From Myxococcales bacterium (GTDB lineage: Bacteria > Myxococcota_A > Polyangia > Polyangiales > Polyangiaceae), in contig JANXLV010000011.1 of NCBI GenBank assembly GCA_025355005.1, forward strand, positions 1 through 50,171: a stretch of 50,171 nucleotides of DNA, written 5' to 3'. The position numbers were made by a program, and so were the translations under genes. Position 1 is the stretch's first letter. Every line of letters starts with the position of its first letter. The notes under the pieces are model-generated. The model was not told where the DNA came from and did no database searches. It saw only the letters and a list, made by a program, of their open reading frames with translations. This document shows, piece by piece, positions 17,506 through 29,276 of this stretch.

Positions 17506-18519
17506 TCACAGGTCTTTGGCGCAGCGGAGGCCCGTCATGAGGAGACGGAAGTACCCTGGATGGTGGACGCGGTTCGACGAGCGCAGGCCTTCGGCTCCGT
17601 AGTTGTAGGCGCCGCCGCGGATCGATTTCTCGCACTCCACCGGGATCGGATTGGAGCCTGTGTAGCCCTGCTTGTGATCGCGTCGCAGCTCGTCCTGTGC
17701 GCGCCTTATCTCTTCGCACGTTCCAGGAATGCCCTTGTCCGCTCCTGCGCGGCGATACGCGTACGGATCGTAGTCGTCCTGCATCCACTCCCAGACGTTG
17801 CCGGCGAGGTCGTCGTGCCCGTACGGCCCGCGGCCCTTCGGATGCGCGCCCACATCGTCGGGCCACGACGTACCGAACACCGTGATCTCCGGCGTCGCGA
17901 GCTCGTTGCCCCACGGATAGCGACGCGCATCGGTTCCGCGCGACGCCTTCTCCATCTCGGCCTCGCGCGGCAACCGCTTGCCGCTCCAGGTGCAGTACGC
18001 GCGCGCGTCGAACCACGAGACCCCCGTCACGGGCTTCCGCGGCCCCCGAAACTTCGCCCCACCCTTCACGACCGTCCCCGGATCCGGCGCGGTGCAAGCC
18101 TTCGCAGCGACACACGCCTGATACGCGGACTGCGTCACCTCCGTGCGATCGAGGAAGAACCCCGCAAGCTCCACCTGATGAGCAGGATGCTCGTCCTCCT
18201 CACCGATCGAATCCGAGCCCATCGTGAAAGGACCAGCGGGAACGAGGAGCATGTCCGGGGGAGGGGAAGGGGAGGAGGGTGAGGGTGAGGGTGAGGTCGA
18301 GGGTGAGGGTGAGGTCGAGGGTGAGGGTGAGGTCGAGGTCGAGGTCGAGGTCGAGGTCGAGGTCGAGGTCGAGGTCGACCCGGCGCTCGCTAGCGTGCCT
18401 ATGAACGACGTCCTCGTCCCTTCTCCCGCTCCCGCTTCATTCCGCACGCAGTGCACCCCTACGCTGGCGAACACGGCCAGCGTTAGTAGCGTCTCTGCCC
18501 TGAGCCCTGAGCGCCGCAT
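17506..18519 (-). CDS. Secreted formylglycine-generating-enzyme (FGE/SUMF1)-family protein with (ST)n/(SP)n linker
   Basis: Only the C-terminal 337 aa of the 902-aa ORF are real. Signal peptide MRRSGLRAETLLTLAVFASVG. FGE-sulfatase motifs (GVSWFDARAYCTWSGKRLPREAEME, GNVWEWMQD, RGGAYNY). The upstream part is antisense to ABC genes. Confidence 0.8.
   Translation of the reverse strand: MRRSGLRAETLLTLAVFASVGVHCVRNEAGAGEGTRTSFIGTLASAGSTSTSTSTSTSTSTSTSPSPSTSPSPSTSPSPSPSSPSPPPDMLLVPAGPFTMGSDSIGEEDEHPAHQVELAGFFLDRTEVTQSAYQACVAAKACTAPDPGTVVKGGAKFRGPRKPVTGVSWFDARAYCTWSGKRLPREAEMEKASRGTDARRYPWGNELATPEITVFGTSWPDDVGAHPKGRGPYGHDDLAGNVWEWMQDDYDPYAYRRAGADKGIPGTCEEIRRAQDELRRDHKQGYTGSNPIPVECEKSIRGGAYNYGAEGLRSSNRVHHPGYFRLLMTGLRCAKDL
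18262..18380. repeat. Coding microsatellite: (gagggtgagggtgaggtc)x3 followed by (gaggtc)x~8, encoding a Ser/Thr/Pro linker on the minus strand
   Basis: Read directly from the sequence; lies inside the FGE-like CDS. Confidence 0.8.
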
Positions 18520-18594
18520 GACTACCTGGAAATTAGGCCGAATCGACGCCATACGAAACTTTTCTGCGTGGTATACGGAGGGACAAGGCCGTTC

Positions 18595-19581
18595 GTGATC
18601 TCCGTCCGCAACCTGGTGAAGCACTACGGATCGCACGTTGCGGTCGACGACCTCTCGTTCGAGGTCGAAAAGGGCAGCGTGGTCGGGTTCCTCGGGCCGA
18701 ACGGGGCCGGCAAGAGCACAACGCTCCGCATCCTGTCCGGCTTCCTCGGTCGGACCGCCGGTGAGGTCACGATCGACGGCCACCAGGTCGACACCTACGA
18801 CGCCAAGCGCGCCACCGGCTACATGCCGGAGGCCGTGCCGCTCTACCCCGAGATGCGCGTCGTCGAATATCTCCGCTTCCGCGCCGAGCTGAAGGAGGTC
18901 CCGCGCAAGGATCGTCGGCCCTTCGTCGACCTCGCGATGGAGCGCGCGCGCGTGACCGACGTCGCGACACGCACCATCGGTGACCTCTCGAAGGGCTACC
19001 GACAGCGCGTTGGGCTCGCGGACGCGCTCGTCGCCAAGCCACCGCTCCTCATCCTGGACGAGCCCACCGCAGGCCTCGACCCGAACCAGATGCGCGAGGT
19101 CCGCGACGTCATCAAGGGCCTCGGCAAGGAGCACACGGTCCTCTTGTCCACGCACATCCTCTCCGAGGTCGAGGCCAGCTGCGACGAGGTCGTCGTCATC
19201 AACAAGGGCAAGCTCGTCGCGCGCGGCACCAAGGAAGAGATCCAGAAGAAGCGGCGCTCCGCCGGGCTCTCCTTCGTGGTGCGCGGCGACAAGGCCACCT
19301 GCGTGCGCGTGCTCACGCAGAGCGGATCGTTCGGAAAGATCACGACGACGCCCGACGCCCAGGATCCCGCGCTCCTCAACGCAGAGGCGCGCTGGAAGAA
19401 GGGCCTCGCGGAGCCGGGCCTCGCGACCGAAGCCGCCGTGGCCGCGCTCTTGGGCGCAGGTCTGTTCGTTCGCTCCGTCACCGTCGAGAAGAGCACGCTC
19501 GAGGACGTCTTCGCGGAGCTCACGCGCGCCGCGGTCCCCACCAGCGCCGACGCGGTGGAGCCGGAACAGGAGGACGAATAG
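18595..19581 (+). CDS. ABC transporter ATP-binding protein (ABC-2/GldA-like)
   Basis: Walker A GPNGAGKST. Signature LSKGYRQRVGLA. Walker B LLILDEPTAGLD. Start set to GTG at 18595 (MISVRNLVKHYG, GGAGGG upstream); ORF-track GTG at 18568 is the alternative. Confidence 0.9.
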   Translation: MISVRNLVKHYGSHVAVDDLSFEVEKGSVVGFLGPNGAGKSTTLRILSGFLGRTAGEVTIDGHQVDTYDAKRATGYMPEAVPLYPEMRVVEYLRFRAELKEVPRKDRRPFVDLAMERARVTDVATRTIGDLSKGYRQRVGLADALVAKPPLLILDEPTAGLDPNQMREVRDVIKGLGKEHTVLLSTHILSEVEASCDEVVVINKGKLVARGTKEEIQKKRRSAGLSFVVRGDKATCVRVLTQSGSFGKITTTPDAQDPALLNAEARWKKGLAEPGLATEAAVAALLGAGLFVRSVTVEKSTLEDVFAELTRAAVPTSADAVEPEQEDE

Positions 19582-20337
19582 ATGCGCGGCTTCTGGCCAA
19601 TCCTCAAGCGGGAGGTGTTCACGTTCTTCGTGACGCCGCTCGCGTGGGTCCTCATCTGCGTGTTCCTGCTCGTGCAAGGCATGCACTTCTACTTGCTCGT
19701 CGATCACTTCTCGAACCAGGCAGAAGTGATCAGCGATCAGACGCCGCTGCAGGCGTTCTTCGGCAACACCGTGCTCCTCTACCTGGTGCTCTTCCTGCTG
19801 GTCCCGCCGATCACGATGCGCCTCTTCGCCGAAGAGCGACGCAGCGGCACCGTGGAGACGCTGCTCACGGCGCCCGTGTCGCCTGCCGCCGTCGTGCTCG
19901 CGAAGTACGTGTCCGCGCTCGTCACGTACGTGTCCATGTGGGCGCCCACGGTGCTCTATCTCGTCATCCTGAATCGCACCGGCCCCATCGACTGGCACGT
20001 CGCGTCCGCCGCTTACCTTGGCGTGTTCTGCGTGGGCGCGGGGTACCTGTCGCTCGGCCTCCTCATGAGCGCGCTCACGAAGAGCCAGTTCTTGGCGCTC
20101 ATCCTCACCGCCATGTGCATCATGGGTCTCTTCATCCTGGGCGTGGGTGAGTTCGTCACGCACGAGGGCCAGACCCTCCACGACGTCTGCGCGCACGTCT
20201 CCGTCTGGGCGCACATGAACGACTTCGGCAGCGGCATCATCGACTCGCGCCGTCTTGTCTTCTACGGAAGCATCGTCGCGCTGTCGCTCTTCTGCACCAC
20301 GCGCGTGGTGGACTCCTGGCGCTGGGGTGACGCTTGA
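19582..20337 (+). CDS. ABC-2 family permease (GldF-like)
   Basis: AGGAGGA RBS. Six predicted TM segments. ATG immediately after the ATPase stop. Confidence 0.85.
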   Translation: MRGFWPILKREVFTFFVTPLAWVLICVFLLVQGMHFYLLVDHFSNQAEVISDQTPLQAFFGNTVLLYLVLFLLVPPITMRLFAEERRSGTVETLLTAPVSPAAVVLAKYVSALVTYVSMWAPTVLYLVILNRTGPIDWHVASAAYLGVFCVGAGYLSLGLLMSALTKSQFLALILTAMCIMGLFILGVGEFVTHEGQTLHDVCAHVSVWAHMNDFGSGIIDSRRLVFYGSIVALSLFCTTRVVDSWRWGDA

Positions 20338-21896
20338 GGCGCTTCCTGGGTCCCGGACAGGCGGGCAAGCTGCTCAGCGTGGTCTTCGCGTTCGTCGCGA
20401 TGGTCACTGCGAACGTCATCGGCGCGCGCCATTTTTCGCGCTGGGACATGACGGAGAACAAGCGCTACTCGCTGTCGCGGCCAACCATCGAGACCCTGCA
20501 TTCGTTGCCCGGCACGATGGAGGTCTGGGTCCTCATGGGCCCGGGCGATCCGCTCGGTGAGAGCGTGAAGCAGCTCTTGGTCTCCTACCGGGCAGAGACC
20601 GACAAGCTGGATGTAAAATACATCGATCCCGATCGCGACACCGCCAAGTTCGAGGACGTGAAGCGGCGATTCCACATCGAGGCCGGTCGCACCGAGGACG
20701 GGCGCCTGGTCGCGGACGCAGTCATCGTGGTCGCGCGAGAGGACAAGCACTGGTTCGTCACGGCGAGCGATCTCTTCGAGGTGAGCGGCACGAGCGAAGG
20801 CCGCGCAAAGCCGCGCGAAGAAGAGGCAGTCACCGGCGCCATCCGCAACGTGCTCGGAGGCCAGAAGTCCGTGCTGTGCTTCTCCGTCGGCCACGGCGAG
20901 ATGTCCCTGGACGACGGCACGGACCGCGGGCTCGGCCAGCTGCGCACGCTCCTCGAGAAGGACAACTACACCGTACATCCGGTGGACACGACACAGAGCG
21001 GCGCCGAGCGCGCGTGGGAAGGGTGCGACGTCGCGGTGATCGCCGGCCCACGCGGCCCATGGAAGAAGGAAGAGGCAGACGCGCTTCGCACCTTCGCGAT
21101 GTCCGGCGGCAACGTGCTCGTGGGTGTCTCGCCGATCACCGGGGATTCGCCCACCGGCATGCAGTCCGCGGGCCTCGACAGCGTCCTCTCGCCGTTCGGC
21201 GTGAAGCTCGAAGATGCGCTCGCTGTCGAACGTGACCCGAAGAGGGTGATCGAGGGCGAGGGCCTCGGGTTCTACGCGGAGGTGCGTCCGCACGCGGTCA
21301 CCAGCGGCTTGCTTCCATCCGAGGACGGGCAGAAGACCACCCCGCGCGTGAAGGTGAAGTTCGCGCGCGCGCTCAGGCACGCGAGCGAGCCCGGCGCAGC
21401 CTCCGCGCTCGATCTCCTGGCGACGACCGATCAGGCGTTCGGCGTGACCGACGTCTCCGGCGCGGCGAGCTGGAGCGGCCCACCGGAGCGGAAGGGCACG
21501 GACGTGCCGGGTCCTGTCATCCTCGCCATGGCGAGCGAGCGACCGAAGCTCGTCGCGAACGCGCCGCACGGTCCCCGCATGATCGTGATGGCCAGCGCGA
21601 GCTTTTTCGTGGGACAGAACTGGCGCGAGACGCTGGCCGATCGCGGCGCGGCGCTCTTCCTGGACAGCGTGGTCTCGTGGCTTGCCGCGAAGCCGGTGGT
21701 GCTGGACATCCCGGAGCGTCAGAGCCTCTCGCTCGGCGTGAAGATGGACGAGGCGAGCATCGCCGACGTGCGCCGCTACGTGCTCATCTACATGCCCCTC
21801 GCGATCGCCATCCTGGGCGGCACCATCCTGTACCTCCGCAAGAAGGGCGAAGCCCCGAAGAGCAAGAAGCCGAAGCCGAAGCGGAAAAAGCCGTGA
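20334..21896 (+). CDS. GldG-like ABC-transporter auxiliary protein
   Basis: N-terminal TM, large periplasmic domain, C-terminal TM plus Lys/Pro tail. Typical GldG-family start region (RWDMTENKRYSLS). TTG start overlaps the permease stop. Confidence 0.8.
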   Translation: MRRFLGPGQAGKLLSVVFAFVAMVTANVIGARHFSRWDMTENKRYSLSRPTIETLHSLPGTMEVWVLMGPGDPLGESVKQLLVSYRAETDKLDVKYIDPDRDTAKFEDVKRRFHIEAGRTEDGRLVADAVIVVAREDKHWFVTASDLFEVSGTSEGRAKPREEEAVTGAIRNVLGGQKSVLCFSVGHGEMSLDDGTDRGLGQLRTLLEKDNYTVHPVDTTQSGAERAWEGCDVAVIAGPRGPWKKEEADALRTFAMSGGNVLVGVSPITGDSPTGMQSAGLDSVLSPFGVKLEDALAVERDPKRVIEGEGLGFYAEVRPHAVTSGLLPSEDGQKTTPRVKVKFARALRHASEPGAASALDLLATTDQAFGVTDVSGAASWSGPPERKGTDVPGPVILAMASERPKLVANAPHGPRMIVMASASFFVGQNWRETLADRGAALFLDSVVSWLAAKPVVLDIPERQSLSLGVKMDEASIADVRRYVLIYMPLAIAILGGTILYLRKKGEAPKSKKPKPKRKKP

Positions 21897-23995
21897 CGGT
21901 CAGGAAGCACGCGTCGCTCATCGTGACGGGAGTGCTCGCAGTGGCGCTGCTCACGTACGCGTACGTCGATCGCAACAACGTCACCGACATCGAACGCACC
22001 GCGCGCGAGGGAGATCTTTTTCCTGCGTGGCGTCGCGACCAGGTGACGCGTTTCGAGCTTGTTTTTCAGGATGAAACGCTCACGCTCGACAAGCACGGCG
22101 ACGACGGCGGCGTGGGCACATGGACCATGACGGAGCCGCGGCCCGACCAGGCCGACTACGCGAGCGTGGAGAGCTTGCTCATCTCGCTGGAGCACGGGCG
22201 TCCGATCCGCAAGTCGTCCACCGACGTCGGCGGGTGGGACAAGCCTCGCGTGCGCGGCAAGGTCTTGATGGGCGCGATCACGTTCGACTTCGAGGTCGGC
22301 GCGCATGCTCCCACGCCCGAGGGGGCGAGCTACTTCAGATTGAAGGGCCAGGAGCCCGTCGTGATCTCGAAGGAGGTGACCGACGCGCTGCTCGCGCACG
22401 GCGAGCACTACCGGAGCCGCGCCGTCGTACCGTACCTCTCACTGCAGCTCGACTGGGTGGAGGTCACGTCGCCGGCGGGTCCGTGGAAGCTCACGCGCCT
22501 GACGCCGATCGCGTTCAAGATCGAGCCGCTCGGGGTGCGTGCGTCGCGGACGAAGATCGATCGCATGTGGGGCGCGCTCGCGGACCTGCGTTCCGAGGCC
22601 TATTTCCCCACGGATGAAGCGAAGCGCCTGACGGAGAACCCCGTGCTGCGCGTGGCCATGAAGCCCACCGAAGCGCAAAAGCCCGCGGGGATCTTTCGCG
22701 TCGGCGGCACATGCCCGGGGCAGCCGGAGCAGCTGATCTTCTATCGCGAGGCGCCCGATCCGATGGGGGCTTGCGTGCCGAAGGGTGCCGTGGAGCGCCT
22801 GTCCGCGACGCCGGATGCATACGCCGACGAGGGCGCGTTCACCTATCGCTTCGACGAGATCGAGGACGTGATCCTGACGTCTGGCGACAAGACCGTGGAG
22901 CTCGCGCGGACGGGCAGCGGCTTCCACATGCGCGCACCGGAGGATCGCGCGCTAGACGTGGACGAGGCGCGCGTCGCGAGCCATCTGCTCACCATCATCG
23001 ACAAGACCGAGGGCGCGAGCTTCGTGCGCGGCTTCTCGACGGACGAGCCCGCGCTGGGCAAGGTGCGTGTCCGCACGGCCGTGGGTGACGAGGAGATCGA
23101 GATCGGGCGCGCGCACATCCGGCGGCTCATGGACGGCGCCGTGCTCTCCGCGAGCGAGACGCTCACCACCGCGCTGCTCCCGCGCAGGACGCTGCTCCGT
23201 GCGCCGCGTATTTTCTCCGAGGCCATCGACGCATCGGAGATCTCCCAGGTGACCCTGGACTGCGGCGCGCTGCAGGTCTTCGAGCGCGATCCGAAGAACC
23301 CGCGCGCGTTCGTGATGCTCGCACCGCCAGGCTTTGCGGTGGACGAGCCGGGGCTTTCCGGCCTGGCCGAGAACCTCACGCGCCTGCGCGCCGACGCCTG
23401 GGTCGCGGACGAAGATCGCGGGGCCTGGAAGACGAAGACGTCGTCGTGCAAGGTGTCGTTCCGGAGCAAGGACGAGGCGGGCACCACGACCCACACGCTG
23501 TCCCTGGGCTCCGCGGGGCAGGGCGGCATCTTCGCGCGGGTCGACGAAGATCCCGCGGTCGCGGTGGTGCCCGTGTCCGTGTCTGATCTGATGCATGCAA
23601 TCTACATTGATACGGAGCTGCCGCATCCGCCGGGCGCCCTCGTTGCGATCGAAGTGAAGCAGGGTGGCAAAACGACCACGCTGCGACCAGGCGACGAGTC
23701 GGGCGAGGCGTTCGCGCAGCTGGAGTCGCTCGCGTTCGATCGCGTGCTGCACCTGGGCGCGCCCGTGGCTGACGATGGGATGAGCACGCCCACGCTGGAG
23801 CTCGGGCTCACGTACGCGAGCGACGCCGGCAGAACCGCGAAGCTCCGGCTCGTGCTGGGCGCCAGGAAACCCAAGGGCTACACCGCTGTTGTCGGCGATG
23901 CGGGCGCAGTGTTCCTGGTCTCGCCGCGGAGGCTGGGCGCGTTCTTCCCCGACGAGCTGCGCAAGCCGACGGACGCGGGCGCCCCGCAGCGCTAG
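21893..23995 (+). CDS. DUF4340-like membrane-anchored periplasmic protein (usual partner of GldG)
   Basis: GTG start forming a GTGA overlap with the gldG-like stop (codon 73 of ORF 21677..23995). N-terminal TM helix, 700 aa. The upstream 72 codons are Arg/His-rich junk. Confidence 0.65.
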   Translation: MTVRKHASLIVTGVLAVALLTYAYVDRNNVTDIERTAREGDLFPAWRRDQVTRFELVFQDETLTLDKHGDDGGVGTWTMTEPRPDQADYASVESLLISLEHGRPIRKSSTDVGGWDKPRVRGKVLMGAITFDFEVGAHAPTPEGASYFRLKGQEPVVISKEVTDALLAHGEHYRSRAVVPYLSLQLDWVEVTSPAGPWKLTRLTPIAFKIEPLGVRASRTKIDRMWGALADLRSEAYFPTDEAKRLTENPVLRVAMKPTEAQKPAGIFRVGGTCPGQPEQLIFYREAPDPMGACVPKGAVERLSATPDAYADEGAFTYRFDEIEDVILTSGDKTVELARTGSGFHMRAPEDRALDVDEARVASHLLTIIDKTEGASFVRGFSTDEPALGKVRVRTAVGDEEIEIGRAHIRRLMDGAVLSASETLTTALLPRRTLLRAPRIFSEAIDASEISQVTLDCGALQVFERDPKNPRAFVMLAPPGFAVDEPGLSGLAENLTRLRADAWVADEDRGAWKTKTSSCKVSFRSKDEAGTTTHTLSLGSAGQGGIFARVDEDPAVAVVPVSVSDLMHAIYIDTELPHPPGALVAIEVKQGGKTTTLRPGDESGEAFAQLESLAFDRVLHLGAPVADDGMSTPTLELGLTYASDAGRTAKLRLVLGARKPKGYTAVVGDAGAVFLVSPRRLGAFFPDELRKPTDAGAPQR

Positions 23996-24125
23996 CCTTG
24001 ACCCGGCGTCGCCGTCTGCGCAGAAATGGAGCGCGCGACCGCTCCACTACGGAGCGCGCATGTCACCACAGTGGGTGAAAATAGGCCGAGTTCGCGTCGG
24101 CACGGCGCCTGCTCAGTGACGGCCC

Positions 24126-26183
24126 ATGAGCGAACGCGACGCACGTGAACGAGACATTCTGGTTGCACCCTCCGAGTACGCCTACGTCCAGGACCTGACG
24201 AAGGGGGACATTGTCCTCTACGTGGGTCCCACGAAGATCAGCCTCTCCAACACCGAGCGCATCGTGGAGCTGCGCGAGAACCGCTTCGTCCCCGTCCGCG
24301 CGGACGACCCGAGCTTCGGCGTGAGCCCGTTCGTGTCGGCCTCGTCCTCGCAGTACATCGTGCTCGAGAATCCCGTGCTGGAAGGAAAGGAGGCGCGCCC
24401 CATTCGCGGCGGCAACACGGCGGTGGACCTCGCCGTGGGTCGCAAGGTCGTCGTGGCCGGACCGACGATGTTCCCGCTGTGGCCCGGTCAGCGTGCGCGC
24501 GTGATCGACGCTCACCCGCTGCGCGAGGACGAGTACCTGATCGTGCGCTACTACGACCGCGTCCCCGAAGATCCGCATCCCATCGGCTCCGAGCTGGTCG
24601 TGCGCGGCGCGGACGTGTCGTTCTACGTACCGCGCACCGGGCTCGAGGTCGTCCCCGCGGAGGTCGTGCCCGGACGCTGGCGGTACGTGCGCAAGGCCAC
24701 GCGCTTCCCGAGGCCCGGGGGCTTGCACGTGCGCGTCACGAAGCAGCTCACCGCAGATGAATGGCACGCCCTTCCCGCGGGGACGTACGCGGCCGGCACG
24801 GACGTGTTCTTGGCCGATCGCGACGGCTACTTCTTCCCGGACGAGAACGTGGAGGTCATCGCTCTGGTGTTGCCCGTTCCGATCGCGGAGAAGGAAGGGC
24901 TCTACGTGCGTGATCGCCCCACGGGTCGCATCGCGACGATCATGGGCCCGGCGAACTACCTCTGCGATCCGACGCGTGAGGAGCTCGTGCCCCGCGTGCT
25001 GTCGCCGGAGCGCGTGAAGCTCTATGGCCTCGCCCATCACGACCCGATGCGTGCCGTCGCGGTGAACGTGCCGCCCGGCTTCGCGGTGCTTGTCACTGGG
25101 AAGACGAAGCGCGAGGTCGTGAAGGGACCGGAGACGCGCATCCTGGACTTCGACGAGGAGCTGACGGTGCAGCGTCTGTCAACGGGTCGCCCCAAATCGG
25201 ACGAGAGCACGCTCGAGACCTGCTTCTTGCAAGTGGAGAGCAACAAGGTGAGCGACACGCTCTCCGTGCGCACGCGCGATCACGTGGAGGTGCAGATCTC
25301 CGTGTCCTACCGTGTGTCGTTCGAAGGGCAGGACAGGCAGCGCTGGTTCCACGTGAAGGACTACGTCGGTCTCCTCTGTGATCACGCGGGCTCCATCCTG
25401 CGCGCCGCGTCGCGCACCACGAGCATCGAGCTGTTCCAGCGCGAGGCGACCGAGATGTTGCGTACCGCGATCCTGGGAGAGCGTCGCGACGTGGAGGGGG
25501 AGGGCGCGGGACCGCCGCGAAGGCCTGGGCGTGCGTTCACCGAGAACGGGATGTGGGTCTACGATCTGGAGGTTCTGGACGTGCGCATCCTGGACGCGGA
25601 CGTCAAGAAGCTGCTGGACGGCGCCCAGCGCGCGGCCATCGTGAGCGACGCGAAGCGGCGCGAGGAAGAGCGTCGCCTGTCCGAGGAGCGACTGCGCGCG
25701 GAGGTCGATCGCGAGGTGGGCGACGCGCAGATCCTGGCGCTGGCGAAGGCGCTGGAGGTGGAGGGCGCGCGTGCGGCGCTGGAGGAGCGTCGGGCTGCGT
25801 CGCTCGTTACGGTCGAGCGCGTCACGCGCGTGGGCGCGGCGGAGGCGGAGGCGCGCGCGCTTACCATCGAGCGCGACGCGGAGGCGCAGTCACTCGAGCG
25901 TCGCGCGGAGCTCGGTCGGAAGACGCTGGAGGCGCAAGTTGCGGCGTTCGAGAAGCAGATGGCTGCGCTGGCGCCGGAGCTCATCTCCACGCTCACCACG
26001 CTGGGCCATCAGAAGCTTGCCGCGGAGCTGTCCCTGAACGTGGGCCCGCTCGCGGTGCTGGGCGGCGGAAGCGTCACGGAGATCGTCGAGAAGCTCCTCG
26101 GCGCGCTCCCCGTGGGCGCAAAGAAGACGGTCGCGGACGTGCTCGTCCATCGCAACGGAGCGGCCATTCCAAAGTCCACCTGA
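24126..26183 (+). CDS. Major vault protein (MVP) homolog: MVP repeats, SPFH-like shoulder and coiled-coil cap helix
   Basis: N-terminus APSEYAYVQDLTKGDIVLYVGPTKISLSNTERIV parallels eukaryotic MVP ([35 protein letters not shown]). Shoulder motifs EGLYVRDRPTGRIATIMGP and LSTGRPK parallel EGIYVQDVKTGKVRAVIGS and LSAGRPK. Arg/Glu-rich coiled coil in the C-terminal third. 685 aa, so fewer repeats than the 9 in human MVP. Confidence 0.85.
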   Translation: MSERDARERDILVAPSEYAYVQDLTKGDIVLYVGPTKISLSNTERIVELRENRFVPVRADDPSFGVSPFVSASSSQYIVLENPVLEGKEARPIRGGNTAVDLAVGRKVVVAGPTMFPLWPGQRARVIDAHPLREDEYLIVRYYDRVPEDPHPIGSELVVRGADVSFYVPRTGLEVVPAEVVPGRWRYVRKATRFPRPGGLHVRVTKQLTADEWHALPAGTYAAGTDVFLADRDGYFFPDENVEVIALVLPVPIAEKEGLYVRDRPTGRIATIMGPANYLCDPTREELVPRVLSPERVKLYGLAHHDPMRAVAVNVPPGFAVLVTGKTKREVVKGPETRILDFDEELTVQRLSTGRPKSDESTLETCFLQVESNKVSDTLSVRTRDHVEVQISVSYRVSFEGQDRQRWFHVKDYVGLLCDHAGSILRAASRTTSIELFQREATEMLRTAILGERRDVEGEGAGPPRRPGRAFTENGMWVYDLEVLDVRILDADVKKLLDGAQRAAIVSDAKRREEERRLSEERLRAEVDREVGDAQILALAKALEVEGARAALEERRAASLVTVERVTRVGAAEAEARALTIERDAEAQSLERRAELGRKTLEAQVAAFEKQMAALAPELISTLTTLGHQKLAAELSLNVGPLAVLGGGSVTEIVEKLLGALPVGAKKTVADVLVHRNGAAIPKST

Positions 26184-26221
26184 CGCTGGGAAGGTGGCGG
26201 AAGGTGGCGTAAGGTGGCGTC

Positions 26222-27097
26222 GTGGATGTGAAGCCGATCGTGAAGTGGGCGGGCGGAAAATCGTGGCTGGTGCCAGCTCTCCGCCCGCTCATTCCGAAGA
26301 AGATGCGGACGTACGTGGAGCCGTTCGCGGGTGGCGCGGCCGTCTTCTTCGCGCTCGCCTCGGAGACGCCGCGTCCGTTCAAGCGTGCGATCCTGGTCGA
26401 TCAGAACGAGGAGCTCGTGGCCTGCTACCGCGCCATCAAGGGCGAGGTGCCCGCGCTGCTCAAGAAGCTGGGCGAGTTCGTCTACGACAAGGAACAGTTC
26501 TACGAAGTGCGCGCGTGGAAGACGTCGAAGATGAGCGACGTCGACCGCGGCGCGCGGCTGATCTATCTCAACAAGACGTGCTTCAACGGTCTCTGGCGCG
26601 TGAACTCCAAGGGTGAGTTCAACGTGCCGTTCGGACGCATGCAGAACCCGAAGATCAAGGACGAGCCGAACTTGATGCGCGCGTCCAAGGCGCTTGCTCA
26701 CTGCGACATTCGTCACGGTGACTTTGCCTCCGCGCTCCAGGGCCTTGGTCCCGAGGACTTCGTCTACTTCGACCCACCCTACGCGCCCGTCTCGAAGACC
26801 GCGAATTTCACGTCCTACGCGAGCGGCGGCTTCAGCGCGGACGATCAGCAACGCCTCGTGGACGCCATGGTGAAGCTTCGCGGCGATGGCGTCGGAGCCG
26901 TCCTGTCCAACGCCGATACGACGGAGACGCAAGCGCTGTACGCGCGCTTCAAACACGAAACCGTCCTCGCGCGGCGCTCCATCAACTCCAACACCAAACG
27001 TCGCGGCCCCACCGGTGAGCTCGTCGTCCAGAACGTGCTCGCACCAGAGAAGAAGAAGAGCAAGAAGAAGGCGGTCGCGCGGGCAGCGCGTACATGA
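26222..27097 (+). CDS. Dam-family (D12 class) DNA N6-adenine methyltransferase
   Basis: Motifs KWAGGK, EPFAGGAAV, YLNKTCFNGLWRVNSKGEFNVPFG, DPPY. GTG start 38 nt after the MVP stop. Confidence 0.85.
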   Translation: MDVKPIVKWAGGKSWLVPALRPLIPKKMRTYVEPFAGGAAVFFALASETPRPFKRAILVDQNEELVACYRAIKGEVPALLKKLGEFVYDKEQFYEVRAWKTSKMSDVDRGARLIYLNKTCFNGLWRVNSKGEFNVPFGRMQNPKIKDEPNLMRASKALAHCDIRHGDFASALQGLGPEDFVYFDPPYAPVSKTANFTSYASGGFSADDQQRLVDAMVKLRGDGVGAVLSNADTTETQALYARFKHETVLARRSINSNTKRRGPTGELVVQNVLAPEKKKSKKKAVARAART

Positions 27098-27723
27098 CTG
27101 GCGATCGCGATGGCGTCGATGCGGAGCCGACCGCCGAAAGCGTCCTCGCGCACAAAGTGAAGGCGGAGCTGCGGAAGCGCCTGCGTGCGCTGCGTCGCAC
27201 GTCCACCGTCGAGGCATGTCGGCAACGTTCGGAGAAGATCATCGCCGCGCTCCTCGCACGCGACGAGATCATCCGGGCGAAGAGCGTCGCGCTGTTCTGG
27301 CCCATCGAGGAGAAGCGCGAAGTGGACCTGCGACCGCTCGGGGATGCGCTCGGCGCGCGCGGCGTTCGCCTGGCGTATCCCACCATCGATCAAGACTCGC
27401 GGGTGATGACGTTTCGTTTCGCGACTCACCCTCCCGCGCTCGAGGAGCGTGGCATGGGCTTCTGCGAGCCGCATCCAGACGCCGAGGAGGCGCAGACGCT
27501 GGACGTGGTCGTGGTGCCCGCGATCGGAGTGGACCCCATGGGGCATCGCATCGGTTACGGCGCTGGATACTACGATCGCACGCTGCCCCGCTTCTGCCCG
27601 CCTGCGATCGCGATCGCGGTCGCGTTCGACTACCAGCTCGTGATCGAGGTCCCGAAGGGGCCGCACGACGTGGCAGTCAACGCAGTGGTCACGGACCTAC
27701 GCGTGATCGACGTCCCGCTCTAG
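27094..27723 (+). CDS. 5-formyltetrahydrofolate cyclo-ligase (MTHFS)
   Basis: ATGA overlap with the dam-like stop. Family motifs (VALFWPIEEKREVD, PAIGVDPMGHRIGYGAGYYDRTL). Confidence 0.85.
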   Translation: MTGDRDGVDAEPTAESVLAHKVKAELRKRLRALRRTSTVEACRQRSEKIIAALLARDEIIRAKSVALFWPIEEKREVDLRPLGDALGARGVRLAYPTIDQDSRVMTFRFATHPPALEERGMGFCEPHPDAEEAQTLDVVVVPAIGVDPMGHRIGYGAGYYDRTLPRFCPPAIAIAVAFDYQLVIEVPKGPHDVAVNAVVTDLRVIDVPL

Positions 27724-27749
27724 ACAGCATCGTCTCCACGCGTTTCTGT

Positions 27750-28172
27750 TCAACGCGTGCCGGAGGCGCGGTTCAGCTTTGCCTGGCAGCTCGCGCAGAC
27801 GCCGTACATCTCGTGCTTGTGGCTGAGGAGGCGGAAGCCGTGCTGGTCCGCGACCTCCTCCTGGATGCGTTCGATGCGCGGCTCCTCGAACTCGATGATG
27901 CTCTGGCACTCGACGCAGATGAGGTGGTCGTGGTGCGACTCCTCGTCCGCGAGCTCGTAGCGCGTGAGGCCGTCGCCGAACCTGCGCTCGAACGCCACGC
28001 CGCACTCCGTGAGGAGCTTCAGCGTGCGATACACGGTGGCGTAGCCGACCTTCGGGTCCTCTGCGCGCACGTCAGCAAGCAGCTCCTCGATGCTGACGTG
28101 GTTCGCCGACTTGAAGAACGTCTCCACGATGAGCTTGCGCTGGTCCGTAGACCGCAGGCCCTTCTTCGCCAT
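27750..28172 (-). CDS. Fur-family transcriptional regulator
   Basis: Start moved to internal ATG (MAKKGLRSTDQRKLIVETF). Winged-helix N-terminus. HHDHLICVECQ and CASC metal-site motifs. Confidence 0.85.
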   Translation of the reverse strand: MAKKGLRSTDQRKLIVETFFKSANHVSIEELLADVRAEDPKVGYATVYRTLKLLTECGVAFERRFGDGLTRYELADEESHHDHLICVECQSIIEFEEPRIERIQEEVADQHGFRLLSHKHEMYGVCASCQAKLNRASGTR

Positions 28173-28313
28173 GTGGTTCGACAGTAGCGAGCGGAAGTGG
28201 GTGAGGCTCGCCGCGGTCGGCCTGTGATCGTGCTTGTTCTTCGCCTTCAAGACTACCCTCCCCCTTGCCTGAAAACGTCGCTTCGAACGGTCGCGGCGTC
28301 AAGGCGCAAATCC

Positions 28314-29276
28314 ATGACGCTGGGCAGGCCGCGTGGTATTCGCCCATGCGTGGGCGCTTTCAAGCATCGATGGCCGTCGAAATGCGTCGCCGCCGTCTCG
28401 ATCGGCGTGGCCCTGACGGCCGCGCACGAGGCACACGCAGAGCCGCAGGGGGAAGCAGCGGCCGTCGCGCCTGCTCCAGAGCCAGAACGTCGACCGGTCC
28501 GCACGTCGAACGAGCTTCGCTATTCGCTCGCGATCGATCTCCCCGTCACCATCGCCGCCGCTGGCTGGCTCCTCGGCAGCGAAGCGGGCAAACAGGATCT
28601 CGTCCCGAGCGCGTGCGCCATCTGCGAGATCGGCAACAACGGCTCCGACCATCTGAACGGCTTCGACGCTTACTTCCGGCAGGCGTTCGTGCGGCGTGAC
28701 GGCGCCGCCGCAGACGTCACGAGCAACGTCCTTGGCTACGGCGTGGCCCCGCTGTCTGCGATAACCCTGCTCGCGCTCGCCGCGCAGCGTGACGACGGAT
28801 CATTGCAGAATACACCTATTGATTTGCTGCTCACGGCGGAGGCCACGCTCCTCTCCATGGACGTGAACCAGGTGGTGAAGCTCCTCGTCCCGCGCGAGCG
28901 CCCGTACCTGCACTTCGCCGACGCAGACTCCAGGCAGGGCCCACAGAGCGCGGAGTCCCGTGTCTCATTTTATTCACTCCACACGTCTGCCACCTTCGCG
29001 CTTGCCGTGTCCGCCGGGACCATCGCCGAGCTGCGCGGATACTCCATTGCCCCACTCATTTTTGGCTCCGGCTTGCTCTTGGGGGCCACCACGGGCTACA
29101 TGCGCATGGCCGCTGACAAGCACTACATGTCCGACGTGCTCGTGGGGGCAGGGATGGGCTCGCTGATCGGGTTCGTCGTTCCGTATACGTTCCACCGACC
29201 TCTACCTGGAAACCTCCGGCTTTCAGGATCACCGTTGCCCGGCGGCGGTCTCCTGGGAGCGTCTGCGACGTTCTGA
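28314..29276 (+). CDS. PAP2-superfamily phosphatase, secreted/membrane-associated
   Basis: Internal ATG at codon 40 of ORF 28197..29276 (MTLGRPRG...), then a signal peptide. PAP2 motifs KLLVPRERPY, SFYSLHTS, DKHYMSDVLVGAGMG. Confidence 0.75.
   Translation: MTLGRPRGIRPCVGAFKHRWPSKCVAAVSIGVALTAAHEAHAEPQGEAAAVAPAPEPERRPVRTSNELRYSLAIDLPVTIAAAGWLLGSEAGKQDLVPSACAICEIGNNGSDHLNGFDAYFRQAFVRRDGAAADVTSNVLGYGVAPLSAITLLALAAQRDDGSLQNTPIDLLLTAEATLLSMDVNQVVKLLVPRERPYLHFADADSRQGPQSAESRVSFYSLHTSATFALAVSAGTIAELRGYSIAPLIFGSGLLLGATTGYMRMAADKHYMSDVLVGAGMGSLIGFVVPYTFHRPLPGNLRLSGSPLPGGGLLGASATF

What the first reader, a model, noticed from the sequence alone, without database searches (positions are those of the whole stretch)
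24001..27723. Bacterial major vault protein homolog co-transcribed with an orphan Dam methyltransferase and MTHFS
The 685-aa protein at 24126..26183 aligns by eye with eukaryotic MVP across the N-terminal repeat (PSEYAYVQDL / VGPTKI / TERIV), the shoulder (EGLYVRDRPTGRIATIMGP, LSTGRPK) and a long Arg/Glu coiled-coil cap helix. It is about 200 aa shorter than human MVP, consistent with about 6 rather than 9 repeats. Vault particles are a eukaryotic hallmark. Bacterial MVP-like ORFs occur sporadically in databases but are, to my knowledge, uncharacterised. Here it sits 38 nt upstream of a Dam-class N6-adenine MTase (KWAGGK...DPPY), unusual in this lineage, which in turn overlaps a folate-recycling MTHFS gene by ATGA. 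The arrangement suggests one transcription unit, possibly horizontally acquired.
Basis: partly seen in the sequence, partly recalled or inferred. Interest (0 to 1): 0.78.

Follow-up and report, generated by a model that had tools for sequence, protein, structure and literature searches.

The report
Myxobacterial vault-protein homolog, incidental gene neighbours
A Polyangiales-type (myxobacterial) genome encodes a shortened but genuine relative of the eukaryotic major vault protein with its own sigma-54 promoter; bacterial relatives of this kind are already known from sequence surveys, and its position next to a DNA adenine methylase and a folate enzyme comes from a recent single-gene insertion, not a functional unit.

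Summary
ORF 24126-26183 (685 aa) is a true major-vault-protein (MVP) family member: Pfam MVP_shoulder 6.5e-23, PDB MVP 1e-50 with a family profile, and a full-length Foldseek match to human, rabbit and rat vault structures at 1e-32. It has about 7 beta-repeats rather than 9, an SPFH-like shoulder, a 125-residue cap helix and a conserved cap-ring-like tail, with no membrane segment.

Dam (26222-27097) and MTHFS (27094-27723) are real, with the stated 38-nt gap and ATGA overlap.

In Polyangiales-type relatives the ancestral order is ABC transporter-GldG-DUF4340-Dam-MTHFS, without MVP. The MVP gene with its promoter is a ~2.26-kb insertion found only in the window's sub-clade. In 14 other Myxococcota loci the MVP gene has unrelated neighbours.

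Dam is therefore a conserved resident, not unusual here. Codon usage gives no sign of recent transfer.

New here: 17 of 18 MVP-like loci carry a sigma-54 (-24/-12) promoter just upstream, so the gene is an independently regulated, activator-dependent unit.

Bacterial MVP homologs have been described in silico since 2013, and none has been characterised experimentally. Verdict: a new member of a known kind, of moderate interest.

The parts
18568..23995 (+). Conserved upstream cluster: ABC ATPase (18568-19581), ABC-2 permease (19582-20337), GldG-like ABC auxiliary protein (20334-21896) and DUF4340 protein (longest ORF 21677-23995; the true start is probably near 21893). This is the ancestral left neighbour of Dam.
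   Evidence: Pfam hits. The same gene order is found in L001, L017, L018, L019, L022 and the contig from sample 3300047160. The ATPase is assigned by synteny only.
23952..26208 (+). Approximately 2.26-kb segment present in the window, L001, L022 and L023 but replaced by 67 bp in L017. It is a single-gene insertion carrying the MVP-like gene and its promoter region. Boundaries are approximate.
   Evidence: In blastn of window vs L017, homology stops at 23951 and resumes at 26209. The outgroups lack the gene at this site. Clade structure comes from flank identities.
24024..24045 (+). Candidate enhancer (activator-binding) site: AAAT-GGAGCG-CGCGAC-CGCTCC, an inverted repeat about 55-75 nt upstream of the -24 element. 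Tentative.
   Evidence: Sequence read directly. Similar A/T-rich+GGAGC (half-)palindromes occur at -40 to -120 in other loci; a strict regex hits 9 of 18 loci against 0.02 expected per locus. The motif was defined post hoc.
24098..24113 (+). Sigma-54 type -24/-12 promoter CGGCACGGCGCCTGCT (GG at 24099-24100, GC at 24111-24112). The predicted transcript start is about 24124, so the mRNA would be nearly leaderless, with no Shine-Dalgarno before ATG 24126.
   Evidence: Scores 10 of 12 consensus positions. Equivalent elements lie upstream of 17 of 18 MVP-like genes, against 0.046 expected per 200 nt. Anchored view. Also present before the long-form relative L025.
24126..25241 (+). MVP-like protein, aa 1-372: array of about 7 five-stranded beta repeats. 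R1 is nearly invariant in the family, and the last two repeats correspond to MVP R8-R9.
   Evidence: AF2 secondary structure; Vault_3 at aa 327-368 and Vault_2 at aa 74-122; Foldseek match to the murine R1-R7 crystal structure at 3e-11; hhalign; invariant columns.
25242..25595 (+). MVP-like protein, aa 373-490: shoulder domain (SPFH/band-7-like alpha/beta fold).
   Evidence: PF11978 at 6.5e-23, matched by 36 of 36 family members. Second-tier Foldseek hits to flotillin, HflK/C, prohibitin and stomatin cages.
25596..25970 (+). MVP-like protein, aa 491-615: a single 125-residue Ala/Glu/Arg-rich cap helix.
   Evidence: AF2 helix H491-615; composition; colinear with MVP cap helix 647-~802.
25971..26183 (+). 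MVP-like protein, aa 616-685 plus the stop codon: conserved C-terminal tail that aligns with the MVP cap-ring region. Low model confidence.
   Evidence: hhalign extends to MVP residue 852; many invariant columns at 607-664; pLDDT <50.
26190..26219 (+). Three tandem 10-nt units (GAAGGTGGCG, GAAGGTGGCG, TAAGGTGGCG) in the MVP-Dam spacer. The last unit contains the Dam ribosome-binding site.
   Evidence: The TAAGGTG before Dam is conserved in L001, L017 and L023.
26222..27097 (+). Orphan Dam-family N6-adenine DNA methyltransferase, probably GATC-specific.
   Evidence: TIGR00571 1.2e-78 and PF02086 4e-56. The closest solved structures are DpnM (1e-58) and E. coli Dam (1e-36), with the motif NGLxRxNxxGEFNVPFGR conserved. 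No restriction-enzyme gene is adjacent. GATC O/E is 1.01.
27094..27723 (+). 5-formyltetrahydrofolate cyclo-ligase (MTHFS), translationally coupled to Dam (ATGA).
   Evidence: TIGR02727 1.3e-41 and PF01812 5.6e-33. The Dam-MTHFS pairing is conserved in L001, L017, L018, L019 and L022.

Best explanation
ORF 24126-26183 encodes a soluble member of the major-vault-protein family. It belongs to a short (about 650-720 aa) sub-family that is common in Myxococcota.

Shown:
- It keeps the MVP module order: beta-repeat array, SPFH-like shoulder, long cap helix, cap-ring-like tail.
- It has about 7 repeats instead of 9.
- It has no membrane anchor.

Inferred: like MVP and the related SPFH cage proteins, it self-assembles side by side through the shoulder and cap helix into a large cup or closed shell in the cytoplasm.

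Shown by comparison: the gene is an autonomous unit driven by a sigma-54 promoter conserved across the family. Its expression should therefore depend on an enhancer-binding activator and a specific signal, rather than being constitutive.

Shown by synteny: in this window's sub-lineage the gene and its promoter were inserted into the spacer between DUF4340 and Dam, within a conserved housekeeping cluster (ABC transporter-GldG-DUF4340-Dam-MTHFS). The adjacency to the orphan GATC-type Dam and to MTHFS is therefore incidental.

Inferred: Dam and MTHFS may now receive read-through transcription from the MVP promoter, but they are not functional partners of the MVP-like protein.
For: MVP membership:
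- Pfam MVP_shoulder 6.5e-23 and Vault_3 above its cut-off.
- 36/36 relatives hit MVP_shoulder and Vault_3, and 32/36 hit Vault_4.
- PDB MVP at 8e-27 for the single sequence and 1.3e-50 for the profile.
- hhalign q136-660 vs MVP 275-852 at probability 99.9.
- AF2 model with about 7 beta repeats, a shoulder and helix 491-615.
- Foldseek full-length hits to human, rabbit and rat vault at 1e-32 to 1e-27; SPFH cages reach only 1e-7.
- No TM segment; maximum KD-19 hydropathy 1.25.

Family size:
- At least 404 clusters at 90% identity, with the listed names mostly Myxococcota (Labilithrix, Haliangium, Polyangiales).
- 1071 representatives at 50% identity, mostly 800-950 aa.

Own promoter:
- A -24/-12 element in 17/18 loci, against about 0.8 loci expected.
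- The long-form relative L025 also has one.

Insertion:
- The outgroups L017/L018 (Dam 85%), the contig from sample 3300047160 (67%) and L019 (55%) have DUF4340 directly followed by Dam-MTHFS.
- Window, L001, L022 and L023 have MVP in between.
- blastn breakpoints are at 23951 and 26209.
- Flank identities are L001-L022 82.8% against 78-79% to L017.

No conserved neighbours in the other MVP loci. No compositional anomaly. The window is core chromosome, with pheT, PGM and similar genes.
Against: - Assembly into a cage is not shown. Only a monomer could be modelled.
- The first ~110 residues and the last 70 have low confidence.
- Internal sequence repeats are not detectable by hhalign, so the repeat count rests on predicted secondary structure and colinearity with MVP.
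- The sigma-54 assignment is a consensus match plus conservation, with no transcript data. A 13-nt distance to the ATG implies a leaderless mRNA, which is unusual.
- Absence of a predicted terminator leaves co-transcription with Dam and MTHFS possible. Intrinsic terminators are in any case poorly predicted in 67% GC DNA.
- The direction of the indel (insertion versus loss in L017) rests on parsimony with three outgroup contigs.
Confidence: 0.7

Rival explanations
1. MVP-like, Dam and MTHFS would form one functional operon, so that the vault-like shell works together with DNA adenine methylation and one-carbon recycling. The unit might have been acquired as a block by horizontal transfer.
For: All three genes lie on the same strand, with a 38-nt gap and then a 4-nt overlap. 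There is no terminator-like site between MVP and Dam. The arrangement is kept in L001, L022 and L023.
Against: The linkage exists only in relatives with MVP at 87% identity or more. The closest outgroups have DUF4340-Dam-MTHFS without MVP. Fourteen other MVP loci lack Dam and MTHFS. MVP has its own sigma-54 promoter. Codon usage and GC3 are typical for the window, and MVP and flank divergence are commensurate.
Confidence: 0.05
2. The protein is functionally an SPFH-type scaffold, like flotillin or HflK/C. It would form a single membrane-apposed dome that organises or sequesters a membrane protein, rather than a free two-halved vault.
For: The shoulder domain is SPFH-like. Foldseek gives second-tier hits to flotillin, HflK/C, prohibitin, stomatin and QmcA cages at 1e-7 to 1e-5. 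4/36 relatives hit Band_7 weakly. JGI names many relatives 'HflC (stomatin/prohibitin superfamily)'.
Against: There is no transmembrane or hydrophobic anchor. The 370-residue beta-repeat array and the cap-ring-like tail are MVP-specific and colinear with MVP. MVP hits are 25 orders of magnitude better than SPFH hits. The N-terminal R1, which forms the half-half waist in vaults (established knowledge), is the most conserved part of the family.
Confidence: 0.15
3. The gene is a recent horizontal acquisition, for example from a eukaryote, a phage or another phylum, landing in a core gene cluster.
For: It is a single-gene insertion relative to the outgroups. MVP-like genes occur on 30 IMG/VR viral contigs next to phage replication genes.
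Against: GC3 is 0.87 against a window mean of 0.86, with typical synonymous codon usage. The closest relatives are all Myxococcota short forms at 49-96% identity, whereas the viral copies are long forms at 27-38% identity. A 73%-identical MVP copy and a 67%-identical MVP-less Dam locus come from the same metagenome on different contigs, which suggests relocation within a lineage. The sigma-54 promoter is shared with other Myxococcota loci. No integrase, transposase or flanking repeats were found.
Confidence: 0.07
4. The protein does not assemble. It would act as a soluble binder or sequesterer, for example of nucleotides, as the 2019 preprint speculated for bacterial MVP-like proteins.
For: This rests on in-silico ligand-pocket predictions reported in 10.1101/872010. 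No assembly data exist.
Against: Conservation of the 125-residue cap helix, the cap-ring-like tail and R1 is best explained by inter-subunit contacts. All structurally characterised relatives (MVP and SPFH proteins) are obligate high-order oligomers (one search hit list; established knowledge).
Confidence: 0.08

Closest known systems
Eukaryotic major vault protein (human, rat or rabbit MVP; vault shell, 78 copies as two 39-mer halves)
   Same: The module order is the same and is colinear from R6 to the cap ring: beta repeats, SPFH-like shoulder, long cap helix, cap-ring region. There is a full-length structural match at 1e-32. The protein is soluble with no membrane anchor.
   Different: It has about 7 repeats instead of 9 (685 vs 861-893 aa) and a cap helix of about 125 residues instead of about 155. 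Sequence identity is only about 20-28%. The host is bacterial, the gene has a sigma-54 promoter, and no vault RNA, TEP1 or PARP4 is detectable in the window. Particle formation is untested.
Previously reported bacterial MVP homologs: Corallococcus coralloides H8MNI3, Plesiocystis pacifica A6FXM1/A6FXE2, Enhygromyxa salina A0A0C2D5V5, Saprospira, Microscilla and Oscillatoriales (Daly et al. 2013, PMC3762200; Sokolskyi 2019, 10.1101/872010)
   Same: They are the same kind of protein in the same phylum (Myxococcota). They are known only in silico and were predicted to fold and dock like MVP.
   Different: The window protein belongs to a short-form clade that collapses to very few 50%-identity clusters, while most relatives are 800-950 aa. 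Neither paper, as read, mentions sigma-54 promoter conservation or the variable genomic context, and no paper in the library pairs 'sigma-54' with 'major vault protein'.
Asgard archaeal MVP homologs (Nat Microbiol 2026, PMC12962969)
   Same: They are prokaryotic MVP homologs with a reduced repeat number (five) plus shoulder and cap helix, modelled as closed cups.
   Different: They are from a different domain of life and have a different repeat number. The relationship to the window protein was not tested.
SPFH/band-7 cage proteins (HflK/C, flotillin, prohibitin, stomatin, QmcA)
   Same: They share the shoulder-like SPFH domain followed by a long helix that builds a multimeric dome.
   Different: Those proteins are membrane-anchored and lack the N-terminal beta-repeat array. 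Their match is 25 orders of magnitude weaker than the MVP match.
Phage-encoded MVP homologs (10.1101/2023.11.10.566534) and the 30 IMG/VR contigs found here
   Same: They have full-length MVP-like architecture.
   Different: They are long forms (803-1058 aa) at 27-38% identity with GC of 25-62%. They are not the source of the window gene.
E. coli Dam / DpnM (M1.DpnII) GATC methyltransferases, and bacterial MTHFS (YgfA)
   Same: Dam has the D12-class fold, the KWAGGK, FxGG and DPPY motifs and the conserved DNA-contact loop. MTHFS scores above the equivalog cut-off.
   Different: Dam scores below the gamma-proteobacterial Dam equivalog cut-off (158 vs 441 bits). Here Dam is fixed in a Polyangiales-specific cluster and translationally coupled to MTHFS.

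Membership tests
Major vault protein (MVP) family | MVP shoulder domain (PF11978) | tested here: met
   E=6.5e-23 and 81 bits against a cut-off of 25, aa 373-490. 36/36 relatives match.
Major vault protein (MVP) family | N-terminal array of vault beta-repeats | tested here: met
   Vault_3 scores 29.9 bits against a cut-off of 28.8; Vault_2 is sub-threshold; Vault_4 is matched in 32/36 relatives. AF2 shows about 7 five-strand repeats. Foldseek matches the murine R1-R7 crystal structure at 3e-11. The classic PF01505 model is not hit, and internal sequence repeats are not detectable.
Major vault protein (MVP) family | Nine repeats (R1-R9), as in animal MVP | tested here: not met
   There are about 7 repeats. 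Query residues 1-135 stand in for MVP residues 1-274. This defines the canonical eukaryotic form, not the superfamily; Asgard homologs have 5.
Major vault protein (MVP) family | Long cap helix directly after the shoulder, followed by a cap-ring segment | tested here: met
   A single helix spans aa 491-615. hhalign is colinear through MVP residue 852. The tail has low pLDDT.
Major vault protein (MVP) family | Self-assembly into a closed two-halved vault particle (39-fold halves) | not testable with these tools
   Only monomer prediction was available, and there is no experimental report for any prokaryotic homolog.
Vault ribonucleoprotein (complete particle) | Associated vault RNA, TEP1 or PARP4 | tested here: not met
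   No Rfam family reaches gathering score in the 50-kb window, and no TROVE or PARP genes occur among the neighbours. The rest of the genome is unknown.
SPFH/band-7 membrane scaffold family | Band_7 domain above threshold plus a membrane anchor | tested here: not met
   No Band_7 hit for the window protein, and only 4/36 relatives at E<1. No hydrophobic segment.
Sigma-54-dependent promoter | GG and GC elements exactly 10 nt apart matching TGGCACG-N4-TTGCW, upstream of the gene | tested here: met
   Window 24098-24113 scores 10/12. The element is conserved in 17/18 loci against 0.046 expected per locus.
Sigma-54-dependent promoter | Dependence on RpoN and an enhancer-binding ATPase; upstream activator site | not testable with these tools
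   A candidate inverted repeat lies at 24024-24045, with related elements in other loci. No activator gene is linked.
Dam-family (D12 class) orphan GATC methyltransferase | D12 domain with the FxGxG and DPPY motifs | tested here: met
   PF02086 at 4e-56 and TIGR00571 at 264 bits against a cut-off of 115. Motifs located.
Dam-family (D12 class) orphan GATC methyltransferase | GATC specificity | tested here: inconclusive
   The best solved relatives are both GATC enzymes (DpnM 1e-58, EcoDam 1e-36), and the K of KWAGGK and the NGLxR...NVPFGR loop are conserved. There are no methylation data.
Dam-family (D12 class) orphan GATC methyltransferase | No cognate restriction endonuclease (orphan) | tested here: met
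   The neighbours are MVP or DUF4340 on one side and MTHFS on the other in all loci. GATC is not avoided, with O/E 1.01. Only 50 kb was examined.
5-formyltetrahydrofolate cyclo-ligase (MTHFS) | Equivalog HMM above cut-off | tested here: met
   TIGR02727 scores 142.5 bits against a cut-off of 84.9.
Conserved operon MVP-Dam-MTHFS | Gene adjacency conserved across diverged genomes | tested here: not met
   The adjacency is found only in 4 closely related contigs. It is absent in 3 outgroup contexts and in 14 other MVP loci.

The most novel reading that the evidence does not exclude
The short, about 7-repeat MVP of Polyangiales-type myxobacteria would assemble into a genuine closed, vault-like protein shell in the bacterial cytoplasm. 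Its production would be switched on by a dedicated sigma-54 enhancer-binding activator in response to a developmental or stress signal. That would be the first prokaryotic vault and a genetically tractable route to the unresolved function and origin of vaults.
Probability: 0.3. Interest if true: 0.75.

Novelty: new member of a known kind. Interest (0 to 1): 0.36.

Why it matters
The function and evolutionary origin of vaults have been open questions since 1986. Prokaryotic MVP homologs are known only from sequence surveys.

This analysis adds nothing categorically new about the protein itself, but it clears away a misleading operon inference and provides three usable facts:
- A compact 7-repeat form is widespread in Myxococcota.
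- It is an autonomous gene with no conserved partner genes.
- It sits behind a conserved sigma-54 promoter, so its expression is signal- and activator-dependent.

The third fact gives experimenters a concrete handle for finding when bacteria make the protein: identify the activator, then use rpoN or activator mutants and promoter fusions in cultured myxobacteria. Particles can then be looked for under those conditions.

The analysis also shows that an orphan Dam coupled to MTHFS is a stable feature of a Polyangiales gene cluster.

Tried and rejected
1. Internal-repeat detection by hhalign on seven slices of the family alignment gave no significant pair (best r1-r6, probability 35%). The repeat count therefore rests on the AF2 secondary structure and colinearity with MVP.
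2. Rfam at gathering threshold over the whole window found nothing, including no vault RNA or 6S RNA.
3. The sigma-70 promoter scan of 23500-28400 found nothing, and the terminator scan found three weak sites, none between MVP and Dam. This is uninformative in 67% GC DNA.
4. PADLOC gave no defence-system model for the MVP-like, MTHFS or DUF4340 proteins; Dam hits only generic MTase and orphan-MTase models.
5. NCBIfam has no model for the MVP-like protein.
6. A search for conserved neighbours of MVP across 16 genome loci by all-vs-all BLAST found none.
7. The AFDB Foldseek library was unavailable, so no UniProt-named nearest structures were obtained.
8. BFVD gave only SPFH-type viral hits.
9. 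I looked for repeats or mobile-element scars at the insertion boundaries by eye and found nothing convincing.
10. The TolA relationship proposed in the 2019 preprint was not pursued. It concerns the low-complexity Ala/Glu/Arg/Lys helix and is not needed to explain the data.
11. A multimer structure prediction was not possible with the tools.

Full report
**1. Observation**

- MVP-like protein at 24126-26183 (685 aa).
- Dam at 26222-27097 (291 aa).
- MTHFS at 27094-27723 (209 aa).

The MVP-Dam spacer is 38 nt. The Dam TGA overlaps the MTHFS ATG as ATGA. KWAGGK, FAGG and DPPY are present in Dam.

The window has 62-72% GC. Its nearest public relative is a Polyangiales MAG contig, JBBRNJ010000135. 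That contig shares the gene order, with 96% protein identity for the MVP-like gene and about 91% nucleotide identity over 7.6 kb. The surrounding genes are ordinary core genes such as pheT, phosphoglucomutase, Fur, PAP2 and ABC transporters.

**2. Is it an MVP homolog?**

Yes, by every test available.
- Pfam gives MVP_shoulder at 6.5e-23 (aa 373-490) and Vault_3 above its gathering score. Vault_2 falls just below its cut-off.
- All 36 aligned relatives hit MVP_shoulder and Vault_3, and 32 of them hit Vault_4.
- Against PDB sequences, the only hits are major vault proteins. The single sequence gives 8e-27 and the family profile gives 1.3e-50, with profile positions 148-594 aligned to human MVP 292-776.
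- hhalign of the family alignment against human MVP is colinear from query 136 to 660 and MVP 275 to 852, at probability 99.9. The aligned span covers R6-R9, the shoulder, the cap helix and the cap-ring region.
- The AF2 model has mean pLDDT 74, rising to 80-92 for residues 110-350 and the shoulder. It shows successive five-stranded beta units up to residue ~368, an alpha/beta shoulder, one uninterrupted helix at 491-615 and a poorly defined tail.
- Foldseek against the PDB returns human, rabbit and rat vault chains over the full length at 1e-32 to 1e-27. The murine R1-R7 fragment follows at about 1e-11. Only then come SPFH cage proteins (flotillin, HflK/C, prohibitin, stomatin) at 1e-7 or weaker.

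The protein has no hydrophobic segment; its maximum Kyte-Doolittle 19-residue mean is 1.25.

The repeat count is about 7. Query residues 1-135 take the place of MVP residues 1-274. This count is an estimate, because sequence-level internal repeats are not detectable.

Even so, residues 7-45 are almost invariant across the family.

**3. How common, and already known?**

The word-indexed search found at least 404 clusters. The listed ones are 620-725 aa, and those that carry names are mostly from Myxococcota: Labilithrix, Haliangium, Polyangiales, 'Deltaproteobacteria' and one 'Planctomycetes' MAG.

The exhaustive search of 1.84 billion representatives found 1071 clusters at E<=1e-3 and 492 at E<=1e-30. 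Nearly all are 800-950 aa. The short form is therefore a narrow clade within a larger, mostly long-form family.

The literature already covers prokaryotic homologs in silico:
- Daly et al. 2013 list bacterial homologs that include the myxobacteria Corallococcus and Plesiocystis (PMC3762200).
- Sokolskyi 2019 analysed Myxococcales, Cytophagales and Oscillatoriales proteins.
- A 2023 preprint reports two phage copies.
- A 2026 paper reports Asgard homologs with five repeats.

I found no experimental characterisation of any prokaryotic homolog. The protein is therefore a new member of a known, uncharacterised kind.

**4. The gene neighbourhood is incidental**

Among 16 genome loci encoding relatives, only the 96%-identical MAG shares any neighbour with the window. 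The other 14 loci, at 49-66% identity, have neither Dam, MTHFS, DUF4340, GldG nor Fur nearby. An all-against-all comparison finds no neighbour family shared among them. Annotated examples confirm unrelated contexts.

Dam orthologs tell the opposite story. At 85% (L017/L018), 67% (a contig from JGI sample 3300047160) and 55% identity (L019, Polyangiaceae GCA_046351415), Dam lies in the same conserved block each time. That block runs ABC ATPase, ABC-2 permease, GldG-like, DUF4340, Dam, MTHFS. DUF4340 is directly followed by Dam, and no MVP gene is present.

MVP sits between DUF4340 and Dam only in the window, L001 (96%), L022 (87%) and L023 (88%).

At the DNA level, homology between the window and L017 stops at 23951 and resumes at 26209. 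About 2.26 kb in the window corresponds to 67 bp in L017. The Dam ribosome-binding site TAAGGTG is kept in both states.

Flank identities are L001-L022 82.8%, against 78.2% and 79.2% to L017. This places the MVP-containing contigs in one clade with L017 outside it. One insertion is therefore the parsimonious history.

In sample 3300047160, a 73%-identical MVP gene lies on a different contig in a different context from the MVP-less Dam locus. This suggests, but does not prove, relocation within the lineage rather than import.

GC3 values are 0.87 for MVP, 0.85 for Dam and 0.82 for MTHFS. Together with synonymous codon usage, they fall within about one SD of the window's 35 genes, whose mean is 0.86 with SD 0.036. 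MVP divergence (87-96%) also tracks that of the flanking genes. I see no evidence for recent horizontal acquisition of any of the three genes.

**5. A conserved sigma-54 promoter**

Reading the regions upstream of the MVP-like genes revealed CGGCACG-N4-YTGCT. This matches the -24/-12 consensus TGGCACG-N4-TTGCW.
- With GG and GC required at exact spacing and at least 9 of 12 consensus positions, 17 of 18 loci have such an element within 200 nt upstream, in the sense orientation.
- The background rate in the same sequences predicts 0.046 per locus.
- Twelve of those loci score at least 10 of 12, against 0.011 expected per locus.
- The exception is the MAG labelled Planctomycetales, which shows a sigma-70-like TTGACG-N17-TAGAGT instead.
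- A long-form (811 aa) relative from a 72% GC MAG also has the element, while a 41% GC relative does not.

In the window the element is at 24098-24113. Its -12 C lies 13 nt before the ATG, and no Shine-Dalgarno sequence is present. The transcript should therefore be nearly leaderless. The same holds in L001, L022, L015 and L006, whereas other loci have 27-50-nt leaders with GGAGG.

A partly palindromic A/T-rich+GGAGC element lies 40-120 nt further upstream in many loci. In the window it is AAATGGAGCGCGCGACCGCTCC at 24024-24045. It is a candidate activator site, but I defined the motif after seeing the data, so it is tentative.

No paper in the library links sigma-54 with MVP.

The consequence is that the MVP-like gene is an autonomous, activator-dependent transcription unit that carried its promoter with it into the DUF4340-Dam spacer. 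Read-through into Dam and MTHFS is possible because no terminator-like site lies in the 38-nt spacer. Such read-through would be a by-product of the insertion.

**6. Dam and MTHFS**

Dam is a D12-class enzyme (TIGR00571, 264 bits). Its closest solved relatives are the GATC enzymes DpnM (1e-58) and E. coli Dam (1e-36). The lysine of KWAGGK and the NGLxRxNxxGEFNVPFGR loop, which contact DNA in E. coli Dam (established knowledge), are conserved.

No restriction-enzyme gene is adjacent in any locus. GATC occurs at its expected frequency in the window, with O/E 1.01. This fits an orphan methyltransferase. Its stable position across Polyangiales-type contigs argues for a housekeeping role rather than a defence role.

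MTHFS passes its equivalog threshold. It is translationally coupled to Dam in the window and in L017. The Dam-MTHFS pairing, not the MVP-Dam pairing, is the conserved one.

**7. Most likely mechanism**

Shown:
- MVP architecture without a membrane anchor.
- Strongest conservation in R1, the cap helix flanks and the tail.
- An independent sigma-54 promoter.
- No conserved partner genes.

Inferred from the behaviour of all structurally characterised relatives: the subunits associate laterally through the shoulder and cap helix into a high-order cup. If the conserved R1 mediates waist contacts as it does in vaults, two cups could form a closed shell smaller than the eukaryotic one, made on demand when an enhancer-binding activator fires.

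The main rival is a single, membrane-apposed SPFH-like dome. Cargo and physiological role remain unknown. Sigma-54 control in myxobacteria is typical of development, motility and stress regulons (general knowledge), which points to where to look.

**8. Verdict**

The MVP identification is right and well supported. The operon, HGT and 'unusual Dam' inferences are not supported. The protein is a new member of an already noted but unstudied class. The additions here are the conserved sigma-54 promoter, the short-form clade and the insertion history. Interest is moderate.

Noticed in passing
L026-L055 (IMG/VR viral contigs): Thirty viral contigs (13-501 kb, GC 25-62%) encode full-length long-form MVP-like proteins (803-1058 aa, 27-38% identity to the window protein). 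In L026, L027 and L028 the neighbours hit PHROG DNA polymerase, primase and endonuclease VII families. The MVP-like ORF itself has no PHROG family. Only two phage MVPs appear to have been described so far.
   Followed up: partly
window 26190-26219: The MVP-Dam spacer holds three tandem 10-nt units, GAAGGTGGCG / GAAGGTGGCG / TAAGGTGGCG. The last unit carries the Dam ribosome-binding site. L001 has a degenerate version of the first two units at the same spacing, and the MVP-less L017 has only the TAAGGTG unit.
   Followed up: partly
window 18568-23995 and 26222-27723; L017, L018, L019, L022: An orphan Dam translationally coupled to MTHFS is a conserved tail of an ABC ATPase / ABC-2 permease / GldG-like / DUF4340 cluster in Polyangiales-type genomes, with Dam at 55-94% identity. 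In E. coli, MTHFS (ygfA) follows the 6S RNA gene instead (my own knowledge). No 6S RNA was detected in this window.
   Followed up: partly
L025:3016-3031 (long-form MVP relative, 811 aa, GC 72%) and L024 (745 aa, GC 41%): The sigma-54-type promoter also precedes a long-form MVP homolog in a high-GC deltaproteobacterial MAG (TGGCGCGCGCGTTGCT, 28 nt before the ATG). It is absent from a low-GC relative, and the Planctomycetales-labelled L004 has a sigma-70-like promoter. Regulation therefore differs by lineage.
   Followed up: partly
whole window: The tetranucleotide CTAG is strongly under-represented (16 observed against 46 expected; O/E 0.35). GATC and most other 4-bp palindromes are at expectation.
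   Followed up: no
window 24085-24101: A GC hairpin, GCCGAGTTCGCGTCGGC, is preceded by GAAAATAG and lies directly upstream of and abutting the -24 element. The scan flagged it as a minus-strand terminator-like site. An A/T-rich patch (GAAAWT) at this position recurs in several other MVP loci and might be a bending or IHF-type site for the sigma-54 promoter.
   Followed up: no
window 2365 (+) and 37454 (-): Two further sites score 10 of 12 against the sigma-54 -24/-12 consensus. They were not examined for downstream genes or conservation.
   Followed up: no
window 17506-20214 (-): The longest ORF here (902 aa) runs antisense through the ABC transporter genes. Only its C-terminal part looks like the FGE-sulfatase gene seen at this position in L017 and L019. 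It contains a long Ser/Thr/Pro low-complexity linker (STSTST...SPSPS).
   Followed up: no
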